DNA from: Trypanosoma brucei
Lineage: Eukaryota
NCBI GenBank assembly: GCA_000002445.1
Contig: CP000067.1
Location: 1-64,000 of the forward strand
Direction: 5' to 3'
Length of the DNA stretch: 64,000 nucleotides
Below, piece by piece: positions 1 to 41,088 of the stretch (position 1 is the stretch's first letter; each line of letters opens with the position of its first letter). Below the pieces are notes generated by a model, which was not told where the DNA came from, searched no databases, and saw only the letters and a list, made by a program, of their open reading frames with translations. The position numbers and the translations under genes were made by a program.

Positions 1-1681
1 GAATTCCCTATCGCTCACATGTTTTAGTCCTCAGCCACACTCACTTTGCTATTCTGTGGGCTCCTGAAACCAATGCCATGATGTACGGATGGCTTTGTGT
101 TTGGGAACTGCAATAAAAATAAGAATAATAATAATAACTCCTTTCACCAATGAGTTTACTATTGGTTGTAAAAGTGCTCTTGGTGTCACCCCATTATTCT
201 TTTTTGAGTCCCCAGCTGTTGAGAGCCGCTGTATTTTTTAAAAAGAGTGATGCACCGTTTTATTCCCCACCCCTTTCAGGCGACTTTCTCCTGCACGGTT
301 GATACTTTCCCATTGTAGAATGTTTCTCAAGGTGTTTCTTTTGTGAAGCTTTGGTTATGCTATAATTAAAGACCACTCAACTCCATGCTTCCGGGACCTG
401 TTGTTGCATTTATTCCCCTTTAATTGCTGCAAATTTGTTCACTTGACAAGTTGTACTGCAATACTTCACTTGACCATATGTGTAACATCGTGTCTCGTTG
501 CTTTATTTAAAATTCAAAAAGAACACATCAGGTGATATTCTTCTGTTCTTACTTCGTACATTCACGCCTCTTCCCGTCAGTTCGGAAACTCCCACTCAAA
601 CTCACCACTCTGTGAATATTTGTAGTTTCCGTTAGTGATGGGTGTACTGAAGTGGACATGTTTGGCACTTCAAAACTAAGTTTTTTAAACTTACACCTTC
701 CTTCCTGCATACAGCTTCAGTGCGAGAGTAAAAGAATAGTTGAGCACCATGAGAAAACATAAGCCCAAAACATTCTCAACGCAAGCTTTCAATAAAAACA
801 AACACATTAAGATGGTTTCGTGAACACATGCAGTATAGTCCCTAGCAAAGGTATTATTCACACCCAATAAACAACTCAAACAAATAACACCACCATACAT
901 ATCGCAGACATATAAGTTGCACCTGCACAAATAAATAAAGGCTGCTGTAACTCATCATGTGTAAAATATTATGAGCACAAAAACACAAATGTCCTTGATC
1001 TTCCATAAATGTATAGCACAATATTATTTTGCATTATCATCGGAAAAAAAATGTATATTGATATATATATTCAGCCAAAAGTCAAGGGCGTGGTCTGGCC
1101 TATTATAACTGTAAATGCGTGCATGTTCTGTTATTATTGTTTCCCATTGTAAAATAAAGATACTTGCAGATGTGGAGAAACGTCTCCCTTAATGCTTATG
1201 ATGCATCAAATAATTCTCTCGTAAAGAAAGGAGCGAGCAAATGCTCAGTACACGTGTCCCTATTTGTATCTTTCAATGAAGGTTCTCTTGAGTGGAGTAA
1301 AGAAAAAAACAAAGAAAAAGCAAGAAGTATATGATGTAATTGGTGAGACATAATGAAATGACCCAACAAGAGGGAAAGGAAGTTACATGCCTTCACTACA
1401 GTCATACAAATAAAGCCAGACCCTTCACACTCGTTTTACAATGTTCTGTCGTATCGCTCTGCATAAACAAAAAATTACTAATAGGAAATGGAAATGTAAG
1501 AAGAGAGTAAAAAAGTATCAAGTAGCTTGAGGATTATCGACACTCAGCTACGTGGAATGATACGCATCGCAAATTTGTGTTTGAAATGCTCACCATCCTA
1601 ATGAACTTACTCGTGTGTTACTTAATCCTGGGAAATACTTCTCTGTTCGCTCAAGTTACCTGACAACTCTCCTTCCACACC
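1..1681. repeat. RHS 3'-flank dispersed repeat, copy A; near-identical to 33231..34906
   Basis: Direct reading: 1..1681 and 33231..34906 align base for base with only scattered substitutions. Both start at GAATTCCCTATCGCTCACATG, and the shadow ORFs 691..930 and 33920..34159 are identical. Each copy lies immediately 3' of a minus-strand RHS CDS. Confidence 0.9.
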
Positions 1682-3120
1682 CTATGCATTGTTACCACCT
1701 CTATTGTTAACTCCGTTGTTATTGTTACCTCTTGCTTTCAATTCAACGTATAGTGCAGTAATGTGGTTACTAAGAGAAACTGAGAATTGACGCACCTCCT
1801 GTTCCCAAAACCTTTTTTCACCTTCATTATCTTGTCCATCTTCTCTGTTTGTCATGCTGCAAGGTTGTGGTTTCGTAATTTTTTCGCTATCAACCCTTTG
1901 AACATATATTATTTCCCATACCATATCATTGGAAAAATTGTCCCAACCTTGGAAGTAACTTCGCAAATACCTTTTCATCTTCAATAACCCTCCGACGCTG
2001 CAGGGATGTTTATCGGAAATTGTGAATTGTAGTCCCACAAAAGTCTTCTGGTTCTCAACAAAAAAGAACGCATCAACAACTGGGAAACTCCTTGATTGCG
2101 GCTTGTACAATTTCATGTATTGAATTTCAGCTCCAGCAACAATTGAAACATCCTTGGGAACCACAATCGAAGGACCAATGAGTCTTGGTTCTTGCAGCAC
2201 CTGCAGCACACTTTGTGGAATTTGATTCCTAGCAAATGAGAGGCCCTGCAACTCCCTTGCCAACTCAATTAGCGTATCCTCATGCGACAATGCTTCAATG
2301 CCACTCTTCTCAAACAGGTGGGCAGTGAGAGCGCGGTTAGACAGCAAAGCAGACATTGCAGCATATTTATTCAGTAACCAAGGTCTCAGAAAGTCTAAAA
2401 TAGCTTGTCCCGTGTAAGATGAAAGCGGTCTGCAGCGATACGTATCACTCAGAAGCTCCTCCTCCTTCACTCGAACAACCCTCACCAACTTGTGTGATGC
2501 TTTGTCTGTTTGCCACATAGCTGCGTTTTGGAAAATTTCTGCGTAATCATTCATATATGTATCATTCAATTTGTTAATGTATCCCCGAATTAGTGTCCAC
2601 TGACTGTCATACGAAACCAAATTACCTATATGACGGAGCAGTGGACCAACGAAAAGAATTCGACCTTGAATTTCTTGCCATTCTCTTTCAATTTTCTCTT
2701 TCGCAACTGGAGGACTCCAACCGTAAGCAGGAGCAATTTTCCCCCACCTCGATATGTGTATGGCTTCCAAATCCTTCAATGTATCACAGTTTACGTAAAT
2801 ATGTGAGGCGGTGTTTTGCTTGGACCATTCATGGAATTGTCTGACGTCTGGAGAGCTCAAAGCAATACCGGCACAACCAACAGGAGGTTTCACTGGAGCA
2901 GGATGATCCTTGTCCACGTCGAATATAAGGTATCCCTTGATATCCTCACCGCCACTCGATTCTCCGATTATCTGCTTAACAGCGGTGAATGCACTCTTAT
3001 AATTACTGTAAAACGTAACATATCCTGCTCGATCGCCTTTGGGTTTACGAAACACGTACGCCTCGCCCTCCACAACGTATATGATAATCTGAAGTTGACT
3101 CGCTTCATAATGCAGTAGTT

Positions 3121-3132
3121 TGTATAACAGTA
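3121..3132. repeat. Target-site duplication TGTATAACAGTA (left copy) of RIME #1
   Basis: The identical 12-mer is at 3641..3652. Its reverse complement TACTGTTATACA matches what I recall as the canonical RHS insertion hot-spot 12-mer. Confidence 0.85.
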
Positions 3133-3640
3133 TTTTTTTTTTTTTTTAGAATTTTCTTCGTGCCTTCGTGAGAGTTTCCCCCCACTGGCGCGGCCATCAG
3201 CCATCACCGTAGAGCCCTGAAATGCTATCGGTCTGGCGACTGTGGCAGAGTCTCCCTTTTTCATTCATCCTAATACACACCCTCTATAATTTTTGTTGTA
3301 TTTCCGCATATGAACGGAATACAGCAGATGGGGCGAGAAGCCTCCCACCCCGGACTCTCCAAAGGATGCCAATTAGCAATCCTTTTTTGGAGTTCCACAT
3401 CACCGGACAGCAGCATCTTAGTGCGGATGATACTGCTGATGGCACGCTGGCACGTGCCCAGGGACCGACAAATGAAAAACGGTGTCCCAGCAAGACGCTG
3501 CTGATCCCTGTGCTGTATGATGCCGTAGCCGGAGCACAGCAGTGTTCCCCATGAAAGGAACTCTGCTGGCTCTTGGCTTCCCCCGATGATACGGGGTACT
3601 GGACCCTGGCACCACGTTGAGGTGGCCGGCATCGCCAGGG
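3133..3640 (-). mobile_element. RIME: RIME non-LTR retroposon, full length (about 493 bp body plus 15 nt poly(A) at 3133..3147)
   Basis: The reverse complement of 3562..3640 reads CCCTGGCGATGCCGGCCACCTCAACGTGGTGCCAGGGTCCAGTACCCCGTATCATCGGGGGAAGCCAAGAGCCAGCAG. This is the conserved 5' 79-mer of ingi/RIME-type elements, recalled from memory. A poly(T) run on the plus strand at 3133..3147 is the poly(A) tail. The flanks are a 12 bp direct repeat. Confidence 0.85.
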
Positions 3641-3652
3641 TGTATAACAGTA
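3641..3652. repeat. Target-site duplication TGTATAACAGTA (right copy) of RIME #1
   Basis: Identical to 3121..3132 and directly abuts the RIME 5' end at 3640. Confidence 0.85.
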
Positions 3653-4715
3653 GGGATCCCACGGAAAAGGATTTACCAATACCAGGCGTACCAATAACAA
3701 CATGAAACATCGGATTGATAGCCACTTCACCCATAAGCCACTGGTTAAGCCGTTCCTCAACCTTATGCCACACCCTCAGTGTTTCCCTGCGGATATAAAC
3801 ATCACTATTAAAAACGTACCCCACTCCCTTCTTGTGATTAATATCATAATCATTTGGGTTCGCTTTACACGACGTGTATGGCCAACCCACTTGAGATGTG
3901 AGCACAGCAATCTCCAAGTTACCGTGACGAGGAAGTGGTTCGTTCATAGTTTTCGGAACGTGACTTACATCAACTTCCTCCTTTGTCCACATGCGCGGCG
4001 GTCTTCCATCGAACACTTTCAATCCAAGTGGCTCTTCATCACAGCCCGACATCACATAGCTCCATTTCGCATTGCAAATGGAATCATACAATCCTCTCAG
4101 TTCGCTACCATCAGCTGCTAGGACAGCTCGCTTTTCCGCTCTCTTGGCGGCTATCACTGCAGCATCCAACCTTCCCCTCGCCACGGGACCAACAAATTCC
4201 CTTATTTCCACTGTCCCCTTCTCCTCCCACTGACTGAGGGTGCTAATTTCCTTTTCGTCAAGATACCTTGCTTTCCGCTTCATTTCAGAGAATTGGTTAT
4301 ATAATTCTTTATATTCCTCAAACTCATCAAGCCCCCGTATCATTCCTAGAAGCCTTGCATCCAAAATATAATCCTCCGGGCTCTGAACAAAAATGGGCAT
4401 CCTAACATTTTCTGCCTCAGCCACCGCAAAAGTCCCGCCAACGAACTCCTGAATAAAGTCGTTCACTGTCATTTTACGCAGAACCTCATACCGTTGCAGC
4501 AATACATCTTCCAGCAGCACATCCCTCACCTTACTATCCATTGTCCAGTTGGGCCCCCCTTCAGTTCTCTGCCGTATTTGTGGAGGCTGAGCAGCAGCAG
4601 GCGGTGGCGGTACATTTTCATCCCGCGGTCTCCTCATGGGCCCTTCAATATTATCTGCCACTTGTTGGTTTGCATTATTTCCTTGTGGAGCTGCGGGACT
4701 ATTTGCTCTTGACAT

Positions 4716-6149: not shown

Positions 6150-6900
6150 TATGTTACGATGGGCATTGCATGCAGTACAATTGAAAGAAAGTGTAACTCA
6201 TATAACATTTTCAAAAAAAAAGGTATTGAATGGTTGTTTGCTACCATCAATTACATTTCCAATGCCTAATTACACTTTTATATGCATGAAGGAAGTTACT
6301 GATGATAACTTTGACATGCTCGAGAATCCATAACACAAAGCGACTGCTTCATGCAATTAAAAATATAAATATAAATAACATCCGAATTCATTTACTGACA
6401 GATGAGTGCAATCCTTTCATCCAAACTTCATAGCTGTAAACATAAACTTGATGCTGCCAATAGGAAATAATCCCGCATAAATATTGAGTATCTGAAAATG
6501 ATAGCAACGGGTTTCCATTTTTGAAATATATGCATAAACTACATGAGGTATATGAAGCCATATTGGTGAAGTGTCACTACGCATGTTGCAATTTACTATC
6601 AAAAGTGTCTGCCTTATTTTATTTCTTTTGTTACTGTAACTCATGAGCATTATTCATTATTCTTTACAATACAACTGTAAGTCATTTTGCATTTTTACAT
6701 ATTTCCTTATTCTCTCATACTGGAAGTATTCCACATATGAGATTCCTCAATATCGTTCACAAAATAAAAATAATTTTATTTACTTCTGCATTCAGTTTCT
6801 TGTGCAGCAGTGTGTACACTCATCATCCATAAAGTTTTTAATTTGCCAAATACATCATTACGAAACTATTTTCATACCCACACATGCACAAACAAACCGT
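6150..6900. repeat. Dispersed repeat about 750 bp; a second copy lies at 37570..38300, upstream of another RHS gene
   Basis: Direct reading: ...gcattgcatgcagtacaat..aaag.aagtgtaactcatataacattttcaaaaaaaaaggtattgaatggttgtttgctaccatcaattacatttcc... continues for roughly 750 bp in both copies with few differences. Confidence 0.8.
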
Positions 6901-13689: not shown

Positions 13690-16565
13690 ACGAAGCACAG
13701 CAAGCTCCACCACCTCCCCAATTACCTTTACGACGCCAACACTTTTCCTGTTGCTGTTAGTGTTACTTCAACTTTATCAAATATGTGTTCTTTTTAACGC
13801 AGATGATGGTGGGAGAGTTACAGTGAAGGCAATATCTCTGTTATACAGTCGAAAATGGAACCTACAAGTTATCAATGACGTGAATGCCGGTTTCAATGCC
13901 TCCCTGGTTGCTCGGAACTGGACGGTGGCACTCGGAGTGAATGTTGAAGTTGCCCGCTCTCCCTCATACGTCATCAATTTGGTCCAGTTTCTGAATGATT
14001 GCCCGAAGGCACTAAATGGCGATGACGCGAACAAGCTGTGCAATACATTAGAAGGGAACCAACTTGTTGGCTTCGGTTCCATGACTGAGTATCAACAGGG
14101 CATGAGGGATATCTGCCGCATCTTTGCTTCCTGCTCCTTGAGGCCACTGGCGAACTTATTACCCCAGTACGTTATGCGGTGAGTCACTTACGTGTGCCAA
14201 AGCAGGGTTTCATGTATCTTGATGGGCTCCCGGGAGGTAGTGAGGCATATAATCAGGCAGTGGATTTCATATAGCGCATGGGGTACAGTTTCTGTTGTGT
14301 TTTCACGGTGGAAGACAAAGCGGGTGGCCAAGGTGGATCACCTGAGGAATCCGACGCTGTATGGGATGACTTTGCTGGGGGAAATCCGCAGGCTGTGACT
14401 ATGTTTGCCGCCATGAAGCCTGATGCCAAAAAAATTCTCGTGAGGTTGGTGTCTGATCCGCGTACGGAAGATACGTTCGTGCTAACTCCGATCTTATTGC
14501 AGAAATCAATCGTGAGCATCTGGAAGGAGACATTGGAGGAAGCGAATGTTCCGTTTGTTCCCCATCGTGTGATTCAGACGGGGTCAAATCCTCTCGCTGA
14601 GGAAGATTATATCGATGCGGTAAAACGCTTTCAGACTGAAATGAGGAACTATTTGACAGAATACAGGGAGTGGAGTGACTTCAATGATGCGGATCACTTT
14701 CTAAAGAGTGACGCGGATGGGGAGCTGACGATCAATGGCTGGATTACTGGAGAGGTGTTGGCGCGGGCACTGCGTAGTCATGGCTGGATGAAAAATCGCA
14801 CAGCCGTCATTGAGTCGCCGTTACGTGATTGATGGCATCGTGATCGGTGATTTTGGAGGTGAGTGCGATAGCTTTACCACTGCAAATGATGCCACTTGCC
14901 GCTGCAACCGTGGCAGGAAGAACGTCTACATGAGGGAGATTGCTGAAAATTACCGCCTGCAACCGCTTGTTGGCAGGCATATTATGACAACTTCCTTACA
15001 GTGTTATATCGATCCCTCATTCCTATAGACACCACTCATCGGCCTCACCGTTGATATGGAAGATCACGAAGAGCTTCTGAGAGAGGTTCCACACAGTTTG
15101 AAACTGGTGTGTCCACCACGACCTCATCTGGGAAAGCTGGCGAGATGAACAGTTTCTTCCTTCAGAAGGTTGCCACGGATATGCAGAAGGTTTCCGACGG
15201 TCTCAACACATTGTGACGGGAAAGGATAGTCGCTGCTGTGTTCGGCATCGTGACAAAAGCGGTGCTCGGTCTGATATTCATTGACCCTATGACACCAATC
15301 CCCCATCTGAACAGTTTCAGCAGGAATGTGATCCACTTGTCCCTAACAATGGAACAACAGCTATGCATGTTAGCGAGCTCCCTCTCCAGCATTCGTGCTG
15401 ACTTCCACCAATCGCGTTGTAAGGGGCGGTGAGGCGTCCGCTTTCATTGATGCACTAAGAAAGACACTGCTCACATTTGGCTTGAACCTCAGCTCTACCG
15501 TTGTGTTGACTGCAGGGGACTCTGTTGGAGAGTATCTTTCGAAAAGTGGTAGCACTTTTATCATTGGACTTGCTGTTGATGGCATTGTGGCAATTGAAGA
15601 GCATCTACGTATCCGCAACAAGGCGCGCGTATTTGTCCAGTTCTCTGACGTTGCGCTGCTGTACAATGAGTTTGTGCAAGCCTTCGACAATAGCGATGGC
15701 ACCAAGCACCTTTTGCTCGCAACAAGTTTGCTTTGCTACCCAGACATCAACGCGACATCGTAGACTGTGCAACGGTTCCACGAGGCGGTACGTGAGGTGG
15801 AAAAGTGGACGCTGCTGTCGCTACTGGGTTTCGCCACGGGTAGACTAATACAAGAGGATCTGCAAAACATGGAAAGGGTAACGTCCGGCCTGCTGGTCGA
15901 CCTTTTCTTCAACCAAACAGTAATCACCGTTGATGGCATGCATTATATGGGCCGTACAAACATTACGATTGCATAACCAACGTTGTTGTTACCACTGATG
16001 ACTGCGTGACAAACTTCGGTGCTACGGATATAAGTCTGTGTGTGTGTGTGTGTGATCAGTGGCACGTGCGCTACGGTCAGATGCACCAATACTACAGAAT
16101 CCGATGTCGCCGTCGTTGGTGTCCGGTGTCCCCAACGGTAATGCCCTCAACCCCGCACAACTTGCTGGTGTGGTTGGTGACTCTTTATTCGTTGTGGCTC
16201 TCGCAATATGTCTAAGCTTGCTTGCGTGATTCCCTCTCCGCGGCACCCGTGATAACGACAGCGCGCCGAAGGAGCCAACGGACCCTGTGACACTAATATT
16301 TACTGACATTGAGAGCAGCACTGCGTTGTGGGCTGCACACCCTCACCTGATGCCTGATGCCGTTGCGACACATCACCGTCTGAGTCGTTCACTGATTGGG
16401 AGGTATAAGTGCTACGAGGTGAAAACTGTTGGGGATTTGTTCACAATAGTGAGCAAGAGTCCCTTCGCTGCCGTCCACCTCGCACAGAAACTGCAGCTGC
16501 GTTTCTTGCATCATTCTTTCCGAAGGGGCTGCACAATTTCTGACAGCGCCGAATGGACAAATGCA
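13690..16565 (+). pseudogene. GRESAG4: Receptor-type adenylate cyclase (GRESAG4/ESAG4 family) pseudogene: extracellular domain, TM segment and the first ~90 aa of the catalytic domain, with multiple frameshifts
   Basis: Translation of 16240..16540 gives RDNDSAPKEPTDPVTLIFTDIESSTALWAAHPHLMPDAVATHHRLSRSLIGRYKCYEVKTVGDLFTIVSKSPFAAVHLAQKLQLRFLHH. This is the hallmark start of the T. brucei adenylate cyclase catalytic domain (established family knowledge). It is preceded by a hydrophobic TM-like LLVWLVTLYSLWL at about 16150..16215. Upstream ORFs (13751.., 14278.., 14810.., 15395.., 15767..) sit in different frames and read as extracellular-domain pieces. The ORF stops at 16565, so the rest of the catalytic domain is absent. 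Confidence 0.75.
16037..16054. repeat. (TG)9 microsatellite
   Basis: gtgtgtgtgtgtgtgtg read directly; similar short (TG)n runs at 7640..7675 and (AT)n runs at 25070..25090. Confidence 0.9.
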
Positions 16566-18595: not shown

Positions 18596-20155
18596 ATGTT
18601 AGGATTACTGACCATAACACATTTTGGCATGCACCTCAATTACTTCCTTATAACACTTCCCCCCCCTCGTTTGATTCATCGCTTAGCTCTATTATTAAAA
18701 AAGAAAAAGCATTTCGTCAACACTCAGCACCTCAAGGAATCGGAAATGGGAACTACAATGTCAGGAAACCAAGGAAGAAAGCGACAGTGCAGCTCATCTC
18801 CTGAGCAGTCAGAAGCTTTAAAGGAATCATCAACTACTGGACAAAATAAACTCACCACCGTTACAATCACCGAAGAGACGCGTGACGCCAGTAATGATGA
18901 AACTGTGATATCATTACTGAATGAGCATGAGAAATTGATTAAACAAACGACACGGCTGGAAAGCAGTGTGAAGGCACTTAAATGTTTCATGAGTAATCTC
19001 ACAGCTATGAGTGGCGAAAGGCAAGGTGGTGTGTGTGATGGCACCGAATGCATACATAGAGTAACATTATATAATGCTGCTGATAATGCCTTCAGTGACG
19101 AAGGACTATGTGAAGGTGCTCTTTCCTCACTCTGTGGCCGTATTCAAGCTAAGAAATTAACCATTGCGCTATCAAAGGGTTGGAAATTTAACTCACGACA
19201 AGTCAGTAAGCTAAAGCAGTTAGAAGAGTTACGCATTGAATATCCGCGTGGAAAACTTGTGAATATGATATCTTTGAAGAGACTGCACATGTTGAAAAGG
19301 CTTTGTCTCAGGAGCAACAATATTGACAACAATGACGCCCGTCACTTATTCAATATTGGAACATTGGAAGAGTTGGCTATTACTGACACCATGCAACTGA
19401 CAAATATCAGAGGAATCTCTCGCTTGACTAACCTGATGTGTCTTGATTTAAATTCCACAAACATTGACGACAACTGTGTGAGGAGAATATGTGCATGTGT
19501 TAAACTGTCCAAATTGAGTGTATCCGAATGCAACAATATCACAGACGCGACACCAATTTCACAGCTTGAAGCACTGGAAGAGTTGAATCTAAACAGCTGT
19601 TACCACATAACGAAGGGAATAGGAACACTTGGCATGTTGTTACGATTGCGTATACTTGATTTGAGTGGTGTTCCTGTGGAAGATAATTGTCTGAAGGATT
19701 TGTGTGACTGTGGATCGCTTGAAAGGTTGAACATTTCTTATTGTATTCAGCTGAAAGATATCAATCCACTCTCCAATGCCACTGCTATTGAGGAATTGAA
19801 CCTTAACGGTTGTCGCCGAATCACACGGGGGATAGGCGTTGTGTGGGCATTACCAAAGCTCCGTGTATTGCACATGAAGGATGTGCACCTGAGTGAGCCA
19901 TCTCTCGATTCAGTTGGGACTGGTGGATCACTTGTAAAGGTCAGTCTTGATAACTGCGCAGGCTTTGGTGATATGACACTCTTATCCAGCATTGTTACAC
20001 TCGAGGAGCTGAATATTCAAAAATGTGCTGGCATCATTAGTGATGTGGGTTGCCTTGGTACACTACCATACCTGCGTGTGCTTAACATAAAGGAGGCACA
20101 CATCTTGTCCCTTGACTTTATTGGTATTGGTGCCTCGAAATCCCTTTACAGTTAA
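18596..20155 (+). CDS. LRRP: Leucine-rich repeat protein (ESAG8-like/LRRP family), N-terminal segment. It is probably the 5' part of one gene that continues in 20116..22941.
   Basis: Repeated about 24-aa LRR units with the recurring motif L..LEELNL..C..IT....LS.L. ATG codons occur at 18596, 18629 and 18746. A polypyrimidine tract at 18640..18700 suggests the real start may be the ATG at 18746 (MGTTMSGNQ...). Confidence 0.7.
   Translation: MLGLLTITHFGMHLNYFLITLPPPRLIHRLALLLKKKKHFVNTQHLKESEMGTTMSGNQGRKRQCSSSPEQSEALKESSTTGQNKLTTVTITEETRDASNDETVISLLNEHEKLIKQTTRLESSVKALKCFMSNLTAMSGERQGGVCDGTECIHRVTLYNAADNAFSDEGLCEGALSSLCGRIQAKKLTIALSKGWKFNSRQVSKLKQLEELRIEYPRGKLVNMISLKRLHMLKRLCLRSNNIDNNDARHLFNIGTLEELAITDTMQLTNIRGISRLTNLMCLDLNSTNIDDNCVRRICACVKLSKLSVSECNNITDATPISQLEALEELNLNSCYHITKGIGTLGMLLRLRILDLSGVPVEDNCLKDLCDCGSLERLNISYCIQLKDINPLSNATAIEELNLNGCRRITRGIGVVWALPKLRVLHMKDVHLSEPSLDSVGTGGSLVKVSLDNCAGFGDMTLLSSIVTLEELNIQKCAGIISDVGCLGTLPYLRVLNIKEAHILSLDFIGIGASKSLYS
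18640..18700 (+). promoter_or_regulatory. Polypyrimidine tract plus AG: candidate trans-splice acceptor region for the LRRP gene
   Basis: cttccttataacacttcccccccctcgtttgattc followed by AG dinucleotides, upstream of the ATG at 18746. Trypanosomatid mRNAs are trans-spliced downstream of polyY tracts (established knowledge). This is inference only. Confidence 0.25.
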
Positions 20156-22941
20156 CTCTGGAGAGTATCACGGGACTGAGTAATGTGGAAGCACTCGCCA
20201 ACATTTTAACTCTGGAAAAACTAAGCCTTCACGGCTGCACGGGTATTGACGCAGGAATTGGATGTCTTGGAAGACTGCCACAGCTTAAAATGTTGGACCT
20301 GTCTGGCACAAATACCGACAATGAGTCTCTCAGAAGTTTATGCCTATCGCAGACAATGGTGTCCCTCAACCTTTCCCATTGTTGGAAAATGACAAATGTG
20401 TCCCATATTTCAAGCCTCGAAGCATTGAATGAACTGAATCTGAGCAACTGTTTTGGAATAAATGCAGGATGGGAAGCATTTGAAAAACTTCAGCAGCTAC
20501 ATGTGGCAATCCTCTCGAATACACATATTACTGACAGAGACATATCCCATTTCAGCAAGTGCAAAAACCTTGTTACGCTTGATCTTTCTTTCTGCAATAA
20601 GTTACTTGATGTTACAACTCTCTCTAACATCACCACGCTTGAGGAGTTGAATCTTGATAGTTGTTCAAACATCAGAAAAGGGCTGAGCGTTCTTGGAGAG
20701 TTGCCACGGCTTTGTGTGTTGAACATAAAGGGTGTACAGTTGGAAGATTCAGTTATTGTTTCACTAGGGAATGGTAACTCATTTGTAAAGCTCAGTCTTG
20801 TGAATTGCAAAGGTTTTGGTGATGTCACGCCCCTCTCGAACCTTGTTACACTTGAGGAACTGAATCTCCACTACTGTGACAAATTAACCTCTGGAATGGG
20901 AACGCTGGGCAGGCTACTGCAGCTTCGTGTACTGGATTTGGGACGGACACAAGTTGATAATAATTCCCTTGAGAATATCTGCACAAGCTCAATCCCACTT
21001 GTGTCATTAAATCTTTCGCATTGCAAGAAAATAACATCTATTTCTACAATAGCTTCCCTTACAGCATTGGAGGAACTCAACATTGACAACTGCTGTAATG
21101 TAACATCCGGCTGGAATGTATTTGGTACACTTCACCAACTGCGTGTAGCCACACTGTCGAATACACGCATTAATGATGAAAACATACGACACGTTAGCGA
21201 GTGCAAGTCTTTGAATACACTCAACCTTGCGTTTTGCAAAGATATAACAGACGTCACAGCACTTTCTAAAATTACTATGCTTGAGGAGTTGAACCTTGAT
21301 TGCTGCCCTAACATCAGAAAAGGTATTGAAACTCTTGGAACGCTTCCCAAGGTACGTATCCTAAGCATGAAGGAATGTTACATGGGAGACGGATATGCGC
21401 AACAATGTTCCATCCTTGGGAATAGTAAGTTACTTGTGAAACTGAATCTTGAGAGGTCAATGGGATTCATATCTGTGAAAGCTCTCTCTAACATTGCGAC
21501 ACTGGAGGAGTTGGTACTTGATCATGCACAGGAAGTATGTTGCATACCGTCATTTTCCTGTCTACCGCGTCTTCGAGTGCTGAATCTGAAATATACAGAT
21601 ATTAATGGTGATGTAACTAAAAATATTTCCGAATCAAAATCGCTGCAGTCACTCAACTTATCACATTGCAAATGGGTAACCGATATATCAGTATTATCTT
21701 CCTTACCAACACTGGAGGAACTGAATCTCAACTGCTGCAATGGAATAAAAAAAGGTTGGGAGTCGCTCGGAAAGCTGCCTCTACTACGTGTAGCAATTCT
21801 ATCTGATACCAACATCACCGCTAAAGATATAGCTTGCCTTAGCAGTTGCAAAACACTTGTGAAACTGCAGTTTTTTTGGTGTGAGGAGTTGTCAGATGTT
21901 ACGGTGGTGTATGAGATTCAATCACTGGAGGAACTGATGGTCAGGAGCTGTTCAGACGGCCTCAAGGGACTGAATGCCCTTGGTACACTCCCACGGCTGC
22001 GTTTTTTGCTTCTGCGAAATTTGAAAGGTAGTGATATATCTGTTGAATCTATTGGGACGAGCAAATCTCTCGTGAGGCTTCATATTGAATTTTGCGAGAA
22101 GTTAACAGACGCAACACCCCTCTCCAACATCACGTCCCTTGAGGAATTGTCATTGCGGAAATGCGGTGATAGCCCGGAAGGAGTCGGAACACTTGGGAAA
22201 CTGCCACGGCTTAGATCGCTGGATCTGGATTTATCTGACATTAGCAATAGCGCACTTAATGATATTTTTCTGTCTCGGTCCATTACGTCACTTAACCTAA
22301 CCTCCAGTTGGAAACTAACAGACATATCTCATATATCAAACCTTACGGCACTGGAGGAATTGAATCTGAGCGGATGTTACCTCATAATTTCAGGCTGGGA
22401 AGCACTTAGCGAATTACCACGACTTCGTGTGCTCAACTTGGTATCTGTCAGAGTTACGACGCGTTACGGTGGATATTATATCAGCAGATGCAAATCCCTC
22501 GTCACACTGAATATTCAATTGAGTGATATGACCGATGCTTCATTTCTTGCTAATATCAAAACACTGGAGGAGTTGCATATAGGAGGATGCAAAGAGCTAA
22601 CGCAGGGGTTTAGTGCACTTTTCACTCTTCCGAGGTTACGCATTCTTGACTTGATTTGTTCTTTCATTACAGATGAAGATCTCAGGGAAATTCAACCACC
22701 CCATACCATTGAGGAGCTCAATCTTTCTTATTGCGAAAATATTAATGATATTACACCACTTGGGAGGATAAAATCAATTAAAAAATTGCATCTCCACCGG
22801 AGCTATGAAGAAAGGGGGCCCACACAAGGATTCAGAAGTCTTTTGGAATTGCCATGTCTTTCTTGGGTGGATCTCAAAAATGCTTCTGTCAGTTCTGATA
22901 TCCTGCGTGAACTGGGAAAAAGGAGGGTAAATATCCGTTAA
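20116..22941 (+). CDS. LRRP: Leucine-rich repeat protein, C-terminal about 940 codons. The frame opens at 20116 with no ATG; the track's M at 20185 is a GTG.
   Basis: Same LRR super-repeat as 18596..20155, for example VTPLSNLVTLEELNLHYCDKLTSGMGTLGRLLQLRVLDL repeated about 8 times. The frame-1 ORF overlaps the end of the frame-2 ORF across 20116..20155. Confidence 0.75.
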   Translation, partial: LYWYWCLEIPLQLTLESITGLSNVEALANILTLEKLSLHGCTGIDAGIGCLGRLPQLKMLDLSGTNTDNESLRSLCLSQTMVSLNLSHCWKMTNVSHISSLEALNELNLSNCFGINAGWEAFEKLQQLHVAILSNTHITDRDISHFSKCKNLVTLDLSFCNKLLDVTTLSNITTLEELNLDSCSNIRKGLSVLGELPRLCVLNIKGVQLEDSVIVSLGNGNSFVKLSLVNCKGFGDVTPLSNLVTLEELNLHYCDKLTSGMGTLGRLLQLRVLDLGRTQVDNNSLENICTSSIPLVSLNLSHCKKITSISTIASLTALEELNIDNCCNVTSGWNVFGTLHQLRVATLSNTRINDENIRHVSECKSLNTLNLAFCKDITDVTALSKITMLEELNLDCCPNIRKGIETLGTLPKVRILSMKECYMGDGYAQQCSILGNSKLLVKLNLERSMGFISVKALSNIATLEELVLDHAQEVCCIPSFSCLPRLRVLNLKYTDINGDVTKNISESKSLQSLNLSHCKWVTDISVLSSLPTLEELNLNCCNGIKKGWESLGKLPLLRVAILSDTNITAKDIACLSSCKTLVKLQFFWCEELSDVTVVYEIQSLEELMVRSCSDGLKGLNALGTLPRLRFLLLRNLKGSDISVESIGTSKSLVRLHIEFCEKLTDATPLSNITSLEELSLRKCGDSPEGVGTLGKLPRLRSLDLDLSDISNSALNDIFLSRSITSLNLTSSWKLTDISHISNLTALEELNLSGCYLIISGWEALSELPRLRVLNLVSVRVTTRYGGYYISRCKSLVTLNIQLSDMTDASFLANIKTLEELHIGGCKELTQGFSALFTLPRLRILDLICSFITDEDLREIQPPHTIEELNLSYCENINDITPLGRIKSIKKLHLHRSYEERGPTQGFRSLLELPCLSWVDLKNASVSSDILRELGKRRVNIR

Positions 22942-25900: not shown

Positions 25901-27787
25901 AGGGGAATGTAAGTTTCGTTGATTAAACATTTCATGGCGCATCATTACCGAGTTTTTTGTTATGAACCCATAATTAACCATGAGACAGGTTTTTACGACT
26001 CATAATCCCTGCATAAATGCAATGCACTGAAGGAATGTAATTTTATTTATTTTTTATTACTACCATTTTTATTATCAGTATTAATATTCAGGTTTTCATT
26101 CATCACTATTTTATTATTTATATTTTCTTTCCAACATCTGTTTCAAGCAACATGGTCGATTGGAATTAATGTAGACATCAATGGTTAGAGAAACTTTGAT
26201 TTGCTTTGACCGTGCAGATGCGCAAAGTTCAAAAGGTTTCAGAAAGGTGTTGGGGAACTTTAACCATATTTTTTTATTACTGAATTATTTCTCTAAAATG
26301 CTTTTTTTCTTTTGTATTGCACTTACATTCAAAACCATTTGGACAGCGCTTTGAAGGCAGTCAAGTGGCGTATGGAAATATTTGCGTATTGGCGTTTTTT
26401 TAACGTATGAGTGTTACGTTCCTAACGGTGATGGAAAAAAGTAACATATGAATGTGTGTTCAATAATAATAATAATAATTAAATGCCAAGTTCTCTTACT
26501 TTCTGTATCAAATAGTGAGTCTTTTTTCTAATATCATTTTTTCAAATGCGTATCGAGGTTTAGGAGGCACAATGTTGCTTAAAACTCAACTCTCACGAAA
26601 ATGAGACAAATTAAGGGAAGCTTCTATCGCAGCCACCATTTCCATGTGTGCAACAGTAAGCGAGTCATCGTAACAATTTTTTTTTTTGCGCGTGTGAAGT
26701 GTGAAATCCTCATGAGAACTCAAAATTTACCACAATAATACTCATTATGCAAGGTGCTTTGAGTGGGGAAGGCGGCGCAGACTCAAATATCCAAAACAAT
26801 TTATTTTCCCATATGGCGGAACGAACGGATGCTGTAGTGAAACATACACTACAAAGCGAGAAAAGTATATCTCCGGGTGCCGACACTCTCCAACGATGTG
26901 AACACAAAACCCTTCATTTACGAACAGGAGGCTTCAGTTTGTTTATTTGTTTGTTTGTTTTTGAATCCATTCCTCACATCAGCGTCCAACATTAAATACA
27001 GGGAATTCAGAAACTTTATCATGACCATTATTGTTGTGTCTTGTAAGATGATACATATTTTATGATAGGAACTTACTGGTCACCAGCAGTCAACAAAGAA
27101 ATACGAAAGAATACAACAGTGATAAACATATATTACCTTGAAGTCACATGTGTACATTTGCACGGAATTAGCTCAGTGGTGTTTGCGAACTCAGAGAATA
27201 AGGAAAAGCGGCAGTCAGATGAAATGAATAAAATACCAAATTTCGTGCATCAATTAATATATTTGAAAATAGAATCTCATGCTGTATGGTCCTTAGAGGC
27301 ATGAAAATAGATTCAATAACGCTAAGGTGTGACAGTGTTGAGGCATCTGTTAATCAACATGCGTTGAAAGTGGGGGAAATGTCAGTGAATATCTGAGGTA
27401 GCGCCAAACTATTTTTTTTTAATGGCCACAAAATGCTGCAGTAGAGCAGTGTGGAAATAATTTCATTGGATAGAAAAATGTGTGAGGAAAGTTTATTAAA
27501 TTTGTTTGAGATTTATAACTGTTCTACCTGAGTAACTGTGTGCGTGCTTTAGTACAGGAATCCCTTTGCGATAAAGCTTCTGTATCCTTTACAAAGGAAA
27601 CGGTAAGAAGTTACATTAGTTAAAAGAGTAAAACAAATATTTTAATCAAGAACAATATTCAATGTTTTGCTTCAGGACAAAAAAACACTTATTCTGGGAA
27701 AAAAGCGTCTGAGGGAACGTGAAGCAAGGGTTGATAATGTTTTCAGTTTATATGGCTCCCTATGCAATGCAAAGTGAAGTCACATTA

Positions 27788-28255
27788 TAATGGACAACGA
27801 AACTCAACCATTGGGAATGAGGATGGTTGATGGAACGCGTGGTGATGATGTAATGTGGAAGAATGAAGAACTTAATCTTGTCCCTAAAATTGAGGAAGCT
27901 GTTGAGAAGAAACCAGAACGCAGGGAAGAAGTTGAAGCAATGGTTCTAACATCTCAAATGTGGTGATAATAAGCTAAGTTTACCAACGGAAGTAACAAAA
28001 ACATATTCATCCATAGAGAAGAGCTCCGTGTATGGAATGTTGTAAGGAATGGAATTGAATTATGGCGTACACAGCGTGCTTTACCGAGATGTCTTTATTT
28101 TCCACGAGCATACGCTGCCATTGTTGACCCTGGGATTGGTAAATCTCAGAATTTTGGTTTTTTCATCCTTTACAAGTTATTGCATTGCGATGCGGAAGAG
28201 TTGCCTATTGTTGCGTATTTCTGCGGTGTAGCCGCATATGTATTTGAAACCAACT
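27788..28255 (+). pseudogene. RHS: RHS gene fragment (about aa 58-215 of a 49436-type RHS) on the opposite strand to all other RHS copies, truncated at both ends and frameshifted
   Basis: Translation MDNETQPLGMRMVDGTRGDDVMWKNEELNLVPKIEEAVEKKPERREEVEAMVLTSQMW and then, in another frame, ...IFIHREELRVWNVVRNGIELWRTQRALPRCLYFPRAYAAIVDPGIGKSQNFGFFILYKLLHCDAEELPIVAYFCGVAAYVFE. This parallels IIDDGTQPLGMTLVDG...FIRREELRVWNVVRSGIELWRTQRVIPGCLYLPRSYVAIGNPGIGKSQNLGSFILYKLLHYDAEELPVVAYFRGVAAYIFE of the ORF 49436..51463. Confidence 0.75.
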
Positions 28256-32902: not shown

Positions 32903-33230
32903 CGCATGGCTGGGTGTAATTCAGGTCACTACTCATATTGCAACTGGATACCACTCTGGACGGAACTTCCTGCAAGATATTATCGAATCCCCATTACAAC
33001 ATGTGTTGTGTTTGTTTGATGGGTTCACCTGTTACCGTATTGTAAAGACGGACCCAAAAACAACATCCGCGTCGGTGTGTCCAATAGAAATGATGGAAGA
33101 ACTCTCCTGTACTGAAATGGCAATGCTCTTTGCTAGTCGTAAACTTACAACAACAAATAGAAGTGTAGTTGCATCCTATGCTGGCATGCGGTAATGATTT
33201 TCTGCCAATGCATAAAAACTCCACATGATG

Positions 33231-34906
33231 AATTCCCTATCGCTCACATGTTTTAGTCCTCAGCCACACTCACTTTGCTATTCTGTGGGCTCCTGAAACC
33301 AATGCCATGATGTACAGACAGCTTTGTATTTGGGAACTGCAATAAAAATAAGAATAATAATAATAACTCCTTTCACCAATGAGTTTACTATTGGTTGTAA
33401 AAGTGCTCTTGGTGTCACCCCATTATTCTTTTTTGAGTCCCCACCTGTTGAGAGCCGCTGTATTTTTTAAAAAGAGTGATGCACCGTTTTATTCCCCACC
33501 CCTTTCAGGCGACTTTCTCCCGCACAGTTGATACTTTCCCATTGTAGAATGTTTCTCAATGTGTTTCCTTTGTGAAGCTTTGGTTATGCTATAATTAAAG
33601 ACCACTCAACTCCCTGCTTCCGGGACCTGTTGTTGCATTTATTCCCCTTTAGTTGCTGCAAATTTGTTTACTTGACAAGTTGTACTGCAATACTTCACTT
33701 GACCATATGTGTAACATCGTGTCTCGTTGCTTTATTTAAAATTCAAAAAGAACACATCAGGTGATATTCTTCTGTTCTTACTTCGTACATTCACGCCTCT
33801 TCCCGTCAGTTCGGAAACTCCCACTCAAACTCACCACTCTGTGAAGATTTGTAGTTTCCGTTAGTGATGGGTGTACTGAAGTGGACATGTTTGGCACTTC
33901 AAAACTAAGTTTTTTAAACTTACACCTTCCTTCCTGCATACAGCTTCAGTGCGAGAGTAAAAGAATAGTTGAGCACCATGAGAAAACATAAGCCCAAAAC
34001 ATTCTCAACGCAAGCTTTCAATAAAAACAAACACATTAAGATGGTTTCGTGAACACATGCAGTATAGTCCCTAGCAAAGGTATTATTCACACCCAATAAA
34101 CAACTCAAACAAATAACACCACCATACATATCGCAGACATATAAGTTGCACCTGCACAAATAAATAAAGGCTGCTGTAACTCATCATGTGTAAAATATTA
34201 TGAGCACAAAAACACAAATGTCCTTGATCTTCCATAAATGTATAGCACAATATTATTTTGCATTATCATCGGAAAAAAAATGTATATTGATATATATATT
34301 CAGCCAAAAGTCAAGGGCGTGGTCTGGCCTATTATAACTGTAAATGCGTGCATGTTCTGTTATTATTGTTTCCCATTGTAAAATGAAGATACCTGAAGAT
34401 GTGAGGAAACGTCTCCATAAATGCTTATGATGCATCAAATAATTCTCTCGTAAAGAAAGGAGCGAGCAAATGCTCAGTACACGTGTCCCTATTTGTGTCT
34501 GTCAATGAAGGTCCTCTTGAGTGGAGTAAAGAAAAAACAAAGAAAAATCAAGAAGCATATGATGTAATTGGTGAGACATAATGAAATGACCCAACAAGAG
34601 GGAAAGGAAGTTACATGCCTTCACTACAGTCATACAAATAAAGCCAGACCCTTCACACTCGTTTCACAATGTTCTGTCGTATCGCTCTGTATAAACAAAA
34701 TACTAGTAGGAAAGGGAAATGTAAGAAGAGAGCAAAAAAGTATCAAATAGTTCGAGGGTTATCGACACTCAGCTACGTGGAATGATACGTATCGTCAATG
34801 TGTGTTTGAAATGCTCACCATCCTAATGAACTTACTCGTGTGTTACTTAATCCTGGGAAATACTTCTCTGTTCGCTCAAGTTACCTGACAACTCTCCTTC
34901 CGCACC
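33231..34906. repeat. RHS 3'-flank dispersed repeat, copy B (see 1..1681)
   Basis: Near-identical to 1..1681 and begins with the same GAATTCCC. Confidence 0.9.
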
Positions 34907-40556: not shown

Positions 40557-40567
40557 TTGGAGCAGGA
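40557..40567. repeat. Target-site duplication TTGGAGCAGGA (left copy) of RIME #2
   Basis: The identical 11-mer is at 41078..41088. Confidence 0.8.
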
Positions 40568-41077: not shown

Positions 41078-41088
41078 AACGAGCCAAC
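41078..41088. repeat. Target-site duplication TTGGAGCAGGA (right copy) of RIME #2
   Basis: Identical to 40557..40567. Confidence 0.8.

What the first reader, a model, noticed from the sequence alone, without database searches (positions are those of the whole stretch)
1..3132. Segmental duplication in which the non-coding 3' flank is better conserved than the adjoining RHS coding sequence
1..1681 and 33231..34906 (RHS 3' flanks) are nearly identical. The abutting RHS C-terminal coding regions (1682..3132 and 34907..36362) are only about 75-80% identical at protein level, except for the extreme C-terminal ~50 residues (SVSLSNHITALYVEL…RGNNNNGVNNRGGNNA), which are shared almost verbatim. This inverted conservation pattern points to a gene-conversion tract covering the flank and the gene's 3' end, or to diversifying pressure on the RHS core. 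Both copies begin with an EcoRI site (GAATTC), and the window itself starts at that site, so copy A may be clipped by a cloning or assembly boundary.
Basis: seen in the sequence. Interest (0 to 1): 0.5.

Follow-up and report, generated by a model that had tools for sequence, protein, structure and literature searches.

The report
Mosaic trypanosome RHS1 gene duplicates
Two copies of a Trypanosoma brucei "retrotransposon hot spot" (RHS1) gene unit have near-identical downstream DNA but patchwork-divergent coding sequence, the usual result of recombination within this repeated family and a pattern already described for this parasite.

Summary
Window 1..1681 and 33230..34906 are 97.4% identical. 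The adjoining coding sequence is 83% identical at nucleotide level and 73% at protein level. The break lies 38 codons inside the gene, at about position 1795.

The window is Trypanosoma brucei TREU927, probably the left end of chromosome 4. "RHS" here means retrotransposon hot spot protein, not bacterial Rhs.
- Copy A (4715..1682, minus strand) is an RHS1 gene split by a 508-bp RIME retroposon at the canonical hot spot, with a perfect 12-bp target-site duplication. Removing the RIME restores an intact 837-aa ORF.
- Copy B (36946..34907) is an intact 679-aa RHS. Its 5' end is of RHS5 type.

Synonymous divergence in the coding sequence (dS 0.25, ranging from 0.05 to 0.88 by block) is about ten times the flank divergence. 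Copy A's protein is a patchwork of paralogues encoded elsewhere in the genome. So the segments have different histories, which means ectopic recombination or gene conversion. Amino-acid diversifying selection alone does not explain it.

The conserved C-terminal tail and the first 366 bp of flank are shared by all RHS1 genes compared. The distal 1.3 kb is not in the two T. b. gambiense loci fetched.

Jackson (2007) already reported coding sequence more variable than UTRs, and incongruent histories, in T. brucei arrays, including an RHS array. This is ordinary and already known.

The parts
1..1314 (-). Copy A, distal 3' flank. It is non-coding and shared with copy B only.
   Evidence: 98.2% identical to 33230..34542, with 24 differences; 441..1155 has one mismatch. 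It is absent from the gambiense RHS1 loci L001 and L002, where homology stops at A 1315. It holds no Pfam-matching ORF and no Rfam hit.
1315..1681 (-). Copy A, proximal 3' flank, shared by all RHS1 units compared. It is probably the 3' UTR (inferred). It ends at a T-rich tract.
   Evidence: The four-way alignment of A, B, G1 and G2 is conserved up to about 366 nt past the stop codon and then diverges abruptly. A and B differ at 19 of 367 positions.
1682..3120 (-). Copy A, RHS1 coding sequence downstream of the hot spot (RHSP P-loop domain and C-terminal domain). It is mosaic relative to copy B.
   Evidence: Pfam RHSP, E = 2.5e-93. Against B: 83.3% nt and 73% aa identity, dS 0.25, dN 0.17. Residues 469-837 are identical to P0003 (XP_951473.1, on a 1,193,948-bp contig) except residues 678-684.
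1..1795 (-). High-identity tract of copy A. It spans the whole visible flank, the stop codon and the last 38 codons.
   Evidence: Segmentation gives 46 differences in 1795 columns, 97.4% identity. The next block drops to 83.7%.
2503..2637 (-). Hypervariable coding block. The B equivalent is about 35731..35865.
   Evidence: 48.9% nt identity between A and B. The 40-codon window that covers most of it has dS 0.88 and dN 0.87. The block is also divergent between A or B and the gambiense copies, whereas the two gambiense copies are 95-97% identical to each other there.
3121..3132 (-). 3' copy of the target-site duplication, TACTGTTATACA.
   Evidence: Read directly from the sequence. The intact site in copy B reads TTCTGTTATACA.
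3133..3640 (-). RIME non-LTR retroposon inserted at the RHS hot spot. It is 508 bp including an A15 tail and lies in the sense orientation of the gene.
   Evidence: It starts CCCTGGCGATGCC and ends in A15. It is 98% identical to a second copy at 40568..41068. Its 3' 250 bp is 93% identical to a stretch of L002 that abuts an ORF with faint RNase H and zinc-finger hits, probably an ingi element. Removing it plus one target-site copy restores an 837-aa ORF.
3641..3652 (-). 5' copy of the target-site duplication, TACTGTTATACA.
3641..4715 (-). Copy A, N-terminal coding part (DUF7578, RHS_N, start of the P-loop domain).
   Evidence: Pfam matches on ORF 3270..4715. 3641..4092 is 88.5% identical to 36349..36800.
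33230..34542 (-). Copy B, distal 3' flank.
   Evidence: Counterpart of A 1..1314. The window start cuts copy A, so whether homology continues left of 33230 cannot be seen.
34543..34906 (-). Copy B, proximal 3' flank shared by all RHS1 units compared.
34907..36946 (-). Copy B, an intact 679-aa RHS gene with an RHS1-type body and a short RHS5-type N-terminus.
   Evidence: 100% identical to P0001 = XP_844174.1, T. b. brucei TREU927, on a 1,590,432-bp contig. Pfam RHS_N and RHSP. 89% identical to P0002 and 70-74% to the RHS1-type proteins P0003 to P0006.
36764..37390 (-). RHS5-type 5' module of copy B: about 61 codons plus 444 bp of 5' flank.
   Evidence: 98.1% identical to 51281..51906, the 5' end of the RHS gene at 49436..51463. 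That gene clusters with proteins named RHS5/RHS5a.
6159..6896 (-). Upstream element of the repeat unit, copy A. The B counterpart is 37579..38318.
   Evidence: 94.6% identical between A and B. The B copy is also 95.5% identical to L002 7813..8538, upstream of a gambiense RHS1 pseudogene.

Best explanation
The two segments are two direct copies, 33 kb apart, of an RHS1 repeat unit in an RHS gene cluster of Trypanosoma brucei TREU927, probably at the left end of the chromosome 4 sequence. The unit consists of an upstream element, the gene, a roughly 366-bp family-wide 3' region, and a distal flank.

RHS paralogues evolve as mosaics through ectopic homologous recombination and segmental gene conversion, so different stretches of the unit have different ages.
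- The tract 1..1795 (flank plus the last 38 codons) shares recent ancestry between A and B, at 2.6% divergence. A still younger sub-tract lies at 441..1155, at 0.14%.
- The coding core alternates between moderately diverged blocks (dS 0.05-0.1) and old, strongly diverged cassettes (dS 0.3-0.9). These cassettes are shared with, or swapped from, other RHS1 paralogues elsewhere in the genome.

Copy A was later hit by a RIME retroposon at the family's insertion hot spot. Copy B carries an RHS5-type 5' end acquired by recombination.

Shown: the anatomy, the identity breakpoints, the excess of dS over flank divergence, and the mosaicism.

Inferred: the mechanism (conversion or recombination), its direction, and the reading of the proximal flank as the 3' UTR.
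For: 1. Identity. Copy B equals XP_844174.1 of T. b. brucei TREU927. Pfam finds RHS_N, RHSP and DUF7578.

2. Different histories.
- Flank divergence is 2.6%, against coding dS of 0.25 (dN 0.17). Per-40-codon dS ranges from 0.05 to 0.88.
- Identity breakpoints are sharp, at 1795/1796, 2502/2503 and 2637/2638.
- Flank against coding sequence gives Fisher p = 1.6e-45.
- A 538-bp identical run inside the flank is reached in 1 of 20,000 permutations.

3. Mosaicism.
- The restored copy A protein is identical to P0003, encoded on a different contig from copy B, over residues 129-375 (three single differences) and 469-837 (one 7-residue patch).
- It switches to identity with P0005 (RHS1, Q8T9M3) over residues 341-422.
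- It follows P0004/P0005 in parts of the N-terminus.
- Copy B follows P0002 instead, at 89%.
- A cluster of four sites at 1947..1971 supports the grouping A+G2 | B+G1, against the majority grouping AB | G1G2.

4. Modular unit. Two gambiense RHS1 loci share the coding sequence plus 366 bp and then have their own distal flank, which is 85-100% identical between those two loci over most windows.

5. Recombinant 5' end of B. It is 98% identical to the neighbouring RHS5 gene.

6. Calibration. Orthologous non-coding DNA of T. b. brucei and T. b. gambiense averages 95.4% identity (PMC2854126). The A/B flank, at 97.4%, therefore looks younger than the subspecies split, while the coding cassettes are far older.

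7. Precedent.
- Jackson 2007 (PMC1855330) reports that variation in T. brucei arrays is typically greater in coding sequence than in UTRs.
- The same paper reports that coding and UTR phylogenies disagree, including for an RHS array (Tb927.7.2030), and that conversion tracts often span stop codons or lie in UTRs.
- Recombination and gene conversion in RHS are described for T. cruzi, and recombinant RHS pseudogenes for T. brucei (PMC7563717).
Against: - No nucleotide sequence of the other TREU927 RHS1 loci (P0002 to P0006) could be fetched. Donors are therefore inferred from proteins only.
- The direction of transfer is undetermined: the flank may have been homogenised, or the cores overwritten.
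- Whether the distal flank is specific to A and B or common to many TREU927 RHS1 units is unknown.
- Some conservation of the proximal 366 bp and of the C-terminal tail is family-wide. It could reflect purifying selection rather than conversion.
- Only four nucleotide sequences were available, so no formal multi-sequence recombination test (GENECONV, RDP, 3SEQ) was run.
Confidence: 0.8

Rival explanations
1. A single-age segmental duplication, after which positive diversifying selection on the RHS C-terminal domain drove the coding sequences apart while the flank drifted slowly.
For: dN/dS is fairly high at 0.69 overall. In a few 40-codon windows dN exceeds dS, for example codons 121-160 and 361-400, though on small counts. 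The variable blocks recur at the same positions in all lineages compared.
Against: - Synonymous divergence (dS 0.25, up to 0.88) is about ten times the flank divergence. Selection on amino acids cannot produce that.
- Copy A's core is identical at protein level to a paralogue encoded on a different contig from copy B. It did not diverge in place.
- Identity breakpoints are sharp.
Confidence: 0.05
2. The flank is a functional non-coding element held constant by purifying selection, while the coding sequence evolves near neutrally. Candidates are a long 3' UTR with regulatory motifs, a non-coding RNA, or processing signals for the downstream gene.
For: The proximal 366 bp is conserved at 88-98% across A, B and two gambiense paralogues. 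That is higher than the neighbouring coding sequence at about 77-83%. In trypanosomes 3' UTRs carry most gene regulation (general knowledge).
Against: - The distal 1314 bp is wholly absent from the two gambiense RHS1 units, which have an unrelated distal flank. It is therefore not an obligatory part of an RHS1 gene.
- There is no Rfam match in the window and no credible ORF.
- Within A/B the proximal part, the more likely UTR, is the less conserved: 5.2% different against 1.8% in the distal part.
- The 715-bp stretch with one mismatch looks like recency, not constraint.
Confidence: 0.1
3. Copy A is a decaying pseudogene. After the RIME insertion its coding sequence accumulated mutations freely, which lowered its identity to copy B.
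For: Copy A is interrupted by a RIME.
Against: - Removing the RIME and one target-site copy restores a full 837-aa ORF with no stops or frameshifts.
- The target-site duplicates are perfect and the A15 tail is intact, so the insertion is recent.
- The coding sequence is identical at protein level to the intact paralogue P0003 over long stretches.
- Neutral decay would affect the flank equally.
Confidence: 0.02
4. An assembly or cloning artefact: the near-identical flank is a collapsed or mis-joined repeat at the end of a clone-based assembly.
For: Copy A starts exactly at the window start, at an EcoRI site. The region is repeat-rich.
Against: The two flanks differ at 43 positions spread along their length, including a 3-bp and a 1-bp indel, so they are distinct sequenced copies. 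Each is contiguous with a different coding sequence and a different upstream context.
Confidence: 0.03

Closest known systems
RHS (retrotransposon hot spot) multigene family of Trypanosoma brucei, subfamily RHS1. Source: Bringaud et al. 2002, Eukaryot Cell 1:137, as summarised in PMC7563717 and PMC6393297.
   Same: - The same Pfam domains, a P-loop (GTPGIGKS), and a RIME inserted just downstream of the P-loop with a target-site duplication.
- Clustering with other RHS subfamilies, LRRP genes and GRESAG4 fragments.
- Many pseudogenes, and recombinant copies whose 5' region comes from another subfamily.
   Different: Nothing essential. Copy B combines an RHS5-type N-terminus with an RHS1-type body, a sub-lineage shared with P0002. 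That fits the recombinant copies the family papers describe. The original paper is not held in the library, so I could not check whether it describes this 3' flank.
Concerted and mosaic evolution of T. brucei tandem gene arrays (Jackson 2007, BMC Evol Biol 7:54, PMC1855330).
   Same: - Variation is greater in coding sequence than in the 5' and 3' UTRs. For BARP, coding divergence is 0.335 against 0.038 for the 3' UTR.
- Non-coding regions can be invariant while the coding sequence diverges.
- Coding and UTR phylogenies are incongruent, including in an RHS array (Tb927.7.2030).
- Conversion tracts span stop codons or lie in UTRs.
   Different: That study treated tandem arrays and found ectopic conversion rare. 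Here the two copies are 33 kb apart in a mixed RHS cluster, and the closest coding relatives of A and B are encoded on other contigs. That implies ectopic exchange.
RHS family of Trypanosoma cruzi (PMC7563717).
   Same: Mosaic genes generated by unequal crossing-over, segmental conversion and interlocus conversion. Pseudogenes act as sequence reservoirs.
   Different: A different species and different RHS groups. No analysis of 3' flank against coding-sequence conservation was seen in the passages read.
VSG gene conversion in T. brucei, in which conserved flanks bound a variable cassette (general knowledge; mosaic VSGs are mentioned in PMC2854126).
   Same: A variable coding core lies between conserved homology blocks: an upstream repeat or element on one side, and a conserved C-terminal-coding end plus 3' region on the other. 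Mosaics are formed from paralogues and pseudogenes.
   Different: RHS proteins are nuclear, not surface antigens. No expression-site mechanism or programmed switching is known for them. The analogy is structural only.

Membership tests
Trypanosome RHS (retrotransposon hot spot) protein family | RHS_N (PF20445) and RHSP P-loop (PF07999) domains, with or without DUF7578 (PF24466) | tested here: met
   Copy A: RHSP E = 2.5e-93, RHS_N E = 1.1e-55, DUF7578 E = 5e-19. Copy B: RHSP E = 6.8e-102, RHS_N E = 3.8e-57.
Trypanosome RHS (retrotransposon hot spot) protein family | ATP/GTP-binding P-loop immediately upstream of a site-specific RIME/ingi insertion hot spot | tested here: met
   A RIME follows GTPGIGKSFSVGSLLLY in copy A. 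A second RHS pseudogene in the window (RIME at 41067..40568) and the gambiense locus L002 carry a RIME at the same relative site.
RHS1 subfamily (defined by the C-terminal domain) | C-terminal domain most similar to proteins named RHS1 | tested here: met
   Restored copy A is 82% identical to P0005 (RHS1, Q8T9M3), 81% to P0004 (named RHS1) and 93% to P0003. Copy B is 70-74% identical to these, against 30-37% to RHS4, RHS5 and other subfamilies. Copy B's N-terminus is of RHS5 type.
RIME non-LTR retroposon | About 500 bp, 3' poly(A), roughly 12-bp target-site duplication, 5' signature shared with ingi and L1Tc, made of ingi ends | tested here: met
   508 bp with A15 and a perfect 12-bp target-site duplication. 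It starts CCCTGGCG; L1Tc starts CCCTGGCTGAG (PMC1874656). Its 3' 250 bp is 93% identical to a stretch next to an ORF with faint RNase H and zinc-finger hits in L002. No reference RIME sequence was available for direct comparison.
Gene conversion / ectopic recombination mosaic | Sharp changes in pairwise identity, with neutral-site divergence differing between adjacent segments | tested here: met
   Segmentation gives 97.4%, 83.7%, 48.9% and 89.0%. dS ranges from 0.05 to 0.88 by window, against 0.026 in the flank.
Gene conversion / ectopic recombination mosaic | Different segments have different nearest relatives (phylogenetic incongruence) | tested here: met
   Copy A switches between P0003, P0005 and P0004 as its identical partner. 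A local patch at 1947..1971 groups A with G2 and B with G1. This was tested at protein level for the TREU927 paralogues only.
Gene conversion / ectopic recombination mosaic | Identified donor locus and direction of transfer | not testable with these tools
   DNA of the other TREU927 RHS1 loci could not be fetched.
Segmental duplication | Two dispersed copies of a multi-kb block that includes non-coding DNA, with defined edges | tested here: inconclusive
   The copies are confirmed: 1..3130, 3641..4092 and 6159..6896 against 33230..36358, 36349..36800 and 37579..38318. The left edge is cut by the window start and the interior is rearranged (a RIME in A, an RHS5 5' module in B).
Bacterial Rhs/YD-repeat toxins (a possible misreading of 'RHS') | YD/RHS repeats, an Rhs core, a bacterial context | tested here: not met
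   Pfam reports only the trypanosome RHS domains. All homologues are from Trypanosoma.

The most novel reading that the evidence does not exclude
The conserved blocks that bracket the variable RHS1 core serve as dedicated recombination anchors. These blocks are the roughly 740-bp upstream element, the family-wide C-terminal tail with its 366-bp 3' region, and locus-type-specific distal flanks. Together they would let variable core cassettes be swapped between dispersed RHS loci in a VSG-like manner, making RHS diversity a selected, organised system rather than a by-product of repeat recombination. Alternatively, the 1.3-kb distal flank could encode an unrecognised functional RNA.
Probability: 0.08. 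Interest if true: 0.45.

Novelty: already known. Interest (0 to 1): 0.15.

Why it matters
Mostly this is a correct reading of the region.
- It shows the window is a T. brucei RHS cluster in a published, annotated reference genome.
- It explains the abrupt end of homology at 3132 as a RIME insertion.
- It shows the 'inverted' conservation is the expected footprint of recombination-driven mosaic evolution in trypanosome multigene families.

The pair is a clean, quantifiable example that could be used when modelling conversion tract lengths in RHS clusters: a 1.8-kb young tract crossing a stop codon, next to cassettes with saturated dS. It does not open a new question.

Tried and rejected
- Fetching DNA of other TREU927 loci. 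Look-ups of P0001, P0002, P0003, P0004 and an LRRP ORF all returned 'not on record'. Only the T. b. gambiense DAL972 loci could be fetched. The chromosomal coordinate of window position 1, and the flanks of the closest paralogues, therefore could not be checked.
- Exact-sequence look-up of small flank ORFs and of copy A's N-terminal ORF. None is in the collection, so these give no copy-number information.
- Rfam scan of the whole window. No family reached its gathering score.
- Tandem repeat scan. Nothing was found in the flank.
- Pfam on the flank and neighbouring ORFs. Nothing was found in 1..1681 or 30.9-33 kb.
- Idea that copy B is RHS7. Rejected. The RHS7 array of Jackson 2007 is Tb927.7.2030 on chromosome 7. 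The only hit on the 2,205,233-bp contig that I take to be chromosome 7, P0032, is 30% identical to B.
- Bringaud 2002 (PMC118050) is not held. A literature search for the EcoRI origin of the TREU927 BAC library found nothing usable. That link rests on my recollection only.
- The bacterial Rhs reading was rejected at once.
Full report
**What the window is**

The window has 40% G+C and sparse long ORFs. The long ORFs match the trypanosome retrotransposon hot spot (RHS) domains RHS_N (PF20445), RHSP P-loop (PF07999) and DUF7578 (PF24466). Others match leucine-rich repeat proteins and a GRESAG4-type adenylate cyclase fragment.

The 679-aa ORF at 34907..36946 (minus strand) is 100% identical to XP_844174.1 of Trypanosoma brucei brucei TREU927. 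That protein is encoded on a 1,590,432-bp contig. The neighbouring 675-aa ORF at 49436..51463 is XP_844175.1, which clusters with proteins named RHS5/RHS5a.

So 'RHS' here is the trypanosome family, not bacterial Rhs. The source is a eukaryotic chromosome, chromosome 4 by its length (my inference).

**The observation**

BLASTN aligns 1..3130 with 33230..36358 at 91.5% identity.

- In a MAFFT alignment the flank 1..1681 has 43 differences, 97.4% identity. Only one mismatch falls in 441..1155.
- The coding part 1682..3120 has 241 differences in 1439 nt, 83.3% identity.
- The protein identity is 73% over 480 residues.
- Flank against coding sequence gives Fisher exact p = 1.6e-45.
- Likelihood segmentation gives 1..1795 at 97.4%, 1796..2502 at 83.7%, 2503..2637 at 48.9% and 2638..3120 at 89.0%.

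Both copies begin with GAATTC. For copy A, however, that is the start of the window. With 15 EcoRI sites in 64 kb, a random start would fall on one with probability of about 2e-4. The record almost certainly begins at a clone or assembly end, and the real left edge of the duplication cannot be seen.

Copy A's homology with B does not end at 3132.

- On the minus strand the gene reads ...GTPGIGKSFSVGSLLLY.
- Next comes a 508-bp element beginning CCCTGGCGATGCC and ending in A15 (3640..3133).
- It is flanked by a perfect 12-bp duplication, TACTGTTATACA (3652..3641 and 3132..3121).
- The coding sequence then resumes. Copy B has the uninterrupted site.

The element shows the expected features of RIME.

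- It is 98% identical to a second copy in another RHS pseudogene (41067..40568, 11-bp duplication).
- Its 3' half is 93% identical to a stretch of gambiense locus L002 that abuts an ORF with faint RNase H and zinc-finger hits, probably an ingi element.
- Its first bases match the 5' signature of L1Tc, which that paper says is also present in ingi and RIME (PMC1874656).

This is the classic RIME insertion at the RHS hot spot described for the family (PMC7563717 and PMC6393297).

Deleting the RIME and one duplicate restores an intact 837-aa ORF. The insertion is therefore recent, and copy A is not a decayed pseudogene.

Upstream, 3641..4092 matches 36349..36800 at 88.5%. A 740-bp upstream element at 6159..6896 matches 37579..38318 at 94.6%. 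A and B are thus two copies of a roughly 7-kb RHS1 unit.

Copy B's first 61 codons or so, plus 444 bp of 5' flank, are 98% identical to the 5' end of the RHS5 gene at 49436..51463. B is therefore an RHS5/RHS1 recombinant, an architecture shared with P0002 (89% identical).

**Why the flank is better conserved than the gene**

Synonymous divergence between A and B is 0.25 (dN 0.17, dN/dS 0.69), about ten times the flank divergence of 0.026. It varies from 0.05 to 0.88 between 40-codon windows. Selection on amino acids cannot raise dS, so a single-age duplication followed by diversifying selection is excluded as the main cause.

At protein level, restored copy A changes partner along its length.

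- It is identical to P0003 (XP_951473.1, on a different contig of 1,193,948 bp) over residues 129-375, apart from three single differences.
- It is identical to P0003 over residues 469-837, apart from a 7-residue patch.
- It is identical to P0005 (RHS1, Q8T9M3) over residues 341-422.
- It is closer to P0004 and P0005 in parts of the N-terminus.

Copy B follows P0002. A and B therefore carry cores of different RHS1 lineages, each a mosaic, attached to a nearly identical 3' tract.

In a four-way nucleotide alignment with two T. b. gambiense RHS1 loci (L001 and L002), the variable blocks fall at the same positions in every comparison between lineages. The two gambiense copies are 95-100% identical to each other there. 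A patch at 1947..1971 groups A with G2 and B with G1, against the majority signal. These are the marks of segmental conversion or ectopic recombination among paralogues.

**How far the conservation is family-wide**

The last 40 residues or so (…VRQFSVSL..HITALYVEL..RGNNNNGVNNRGGNNA) are conserved across the RHS1-type proteins P0003 to P0007. They are not evidence for an event specific to A and B.

Homology of A and B with both gambiense loci continues for 366 bp past the stop codon at about 88-98%. It ends abruptly at a T-rich tract (A 1315, B 34543). Beyond that point the gambiense loci share their own, unrelated distal flank.

The unit is therefore modular: coding sequence plus a family-wide proximal 3' region (probably the 3' UTR, my inference), followed by a distal flank that differs between locus types.

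Within A/B the proximal part is 5.2% diverged, similar to dS in the conserved coding blocks. The distal 1314 bp is 1.8% diverged, and 441..1155 only 0.14%. A 538-bp perfect run is reached in 1 of 20,000 permutations of the flank, so the flank itself contains at least one still younger tract.

For scale, orthologous non-coding DNA of T. b. brucei and T. b. gambiense averages 95.4% identity (PMC2854126). The A/B flank looks younger than the subspecies split, and the coding cassettes far older.

**Rivals**

- Purifying selection on a functional flank may contribute to the proximal 366 bp. It cannot explain the distal 1.3 kb, which is dispensable in other RHS1 units, has no Rfam match and no credible ORF.
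- Pseudogene decay is refuted by the intact restored ORF.
- An assembly artefact is unlikely, because the flanks differ at 43 dispersed positions including indels.

**Comparison with what is known**

Everything here fits published descriptions.

- The RHS family has a RIME/ingi hot spot, subfamilies defined by C-termini, about 60% pseudogenes, and recombinant copies (Bringaud 2002 as summarised in PMC7563717 and PMC6393297).
- RHS genes in T. cruzi evolve as mosaics by unequal crossing-over and conversion (PMC7563717).
- Most directly, Jackson 2007 (PMC1855330) reports that variation in T. brucei arrays is typically greater in coding regions than in UTRs. For BARP the figures are 0.335 against 0.038.
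- The same paper reports that non-coding regions can be invariant while the coding sequence diverges, and that coding and UTR phylogenies disagree, with an RHS array (Tb927.7.2030) as an example. It also reports conversion tracts that often span stop codons or lie within 3' UTRs.

The present pair differs only in being dispersed, 33 kb apart, with nearest coding relatives encoded on other contigs. That implies ectopic rather than within-array exchange.

**Limits**

DNA of the other TREU927 RHS1 loci could not be fetched. Three things therefore remain open:
- the donor loci and the direction of transfer;
- how widely the distal flank is distributed;
- the exact chromosomal position of window base 1.

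The original RHS paper is not held in the library.

**Verdict**

The gene-conversion reading is supported in substance, and the diversifying-selection reading is not. The feature is an ordinary, already described property of a well-known trypanosome multigene family in an annotated reference genome. Interest is low.

Noticed in passing
window 3121..3652 (minus strand): A 508-bp RIME with an A15 tail and a perfect 12-bp target-site duplication (TACTGTTATACA) splits copy A at the RHS hot spot. Removing it restores an intact 837-aa RHS1 ORF, so the insertion is recent. ORF 3270..4715 is an RHS N-terminus read through into the RIME.
   Followed up: yes
window 40557..41078, with RHS fragments at 39136..39987, 40711..41331 and 41611..42102 (minus strand): A second RIME (41067..40568, A9 tail, 11-bp duplication TCCTGCTCCAA) sits at the same relative site of another RHS pseudogene, which is itself broken into several ORF fragments.
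   Followed up: partly
window 36764..37390 against 51281..51906: The 5' flank and first 61 codons or so of copy B are 98% identical to those of the RHS5-type gene at 49436..51463. Copy B is an RHS5/RHS1 recombinant that lacks the DUF7578 N-terminal region.
   Followed up: partly
window 52598..58565 against 58026..64000: A tandem duplication with a period of about 5.4 kb, 97.2% identical and running to the window end. Each copy holds a 565-aa RHS ORF (54845..56542 and 60277..61974) whose RHSP domain stops at profile position 248 of 312, so the ORFs are probably truncated.
   Followed up: no
window 6159..6896 and 37579..38318; L002 7813..8538: A roughly 740-bp non-coding element upstream of both RHS1 units, 94.6% identical between A and B. 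The B copy is also 95.5% identical to a stretch upstream of a T. b. gambiense RHS1 pseudogene. It lies at different distances from the ATG (1.4 kb in A, 0.6 kb in B). Its function is unknown.
   Followed up: no
window 27766..28249 (plus strand) against 51298..50815: An inverted RHS N-terminal fragment, 82% identical to the RHS5-type gene, lies between the plus-strand LRRP genes and the minus-strand RHS array. Transcripts from it would be antisense to RHS mRNA, and RHS pseudogene pairs are a reported siRNA source (PMC7563717, citing Wen 2011).
   Followed up: no
window 18596..20155 and 20185..22941 (plus strand); 14278..14832: Two adjacent leucine-rich-repeat ORFs in different frames, probably one LRRP gene with a frameshift or two genes. 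There is also a fragment of a GRESAG4-type adenylate cyclase periplasmic-binding domain. Neither LRR ORF's exact product is in the protein collection.
   Followed up: no
L002 11040..11550 (T. b. gambiense FN554974.1): A gambiense RHS1 pseudogene carries a RIME at exactly the same hot-spot position as copy A, but its two target-site copies differ slightly (TACTGTTATACA and TTCTGTTATACA). Whether the insertion was inherited or arose independently was not resolved.
   Followed up: partly
window 1..6: The window starts exactly on an EcoRI site, one of 15 in 64 kb. That suggests the source record begins at a clone-insert or assembly end.
   Followed up: partly
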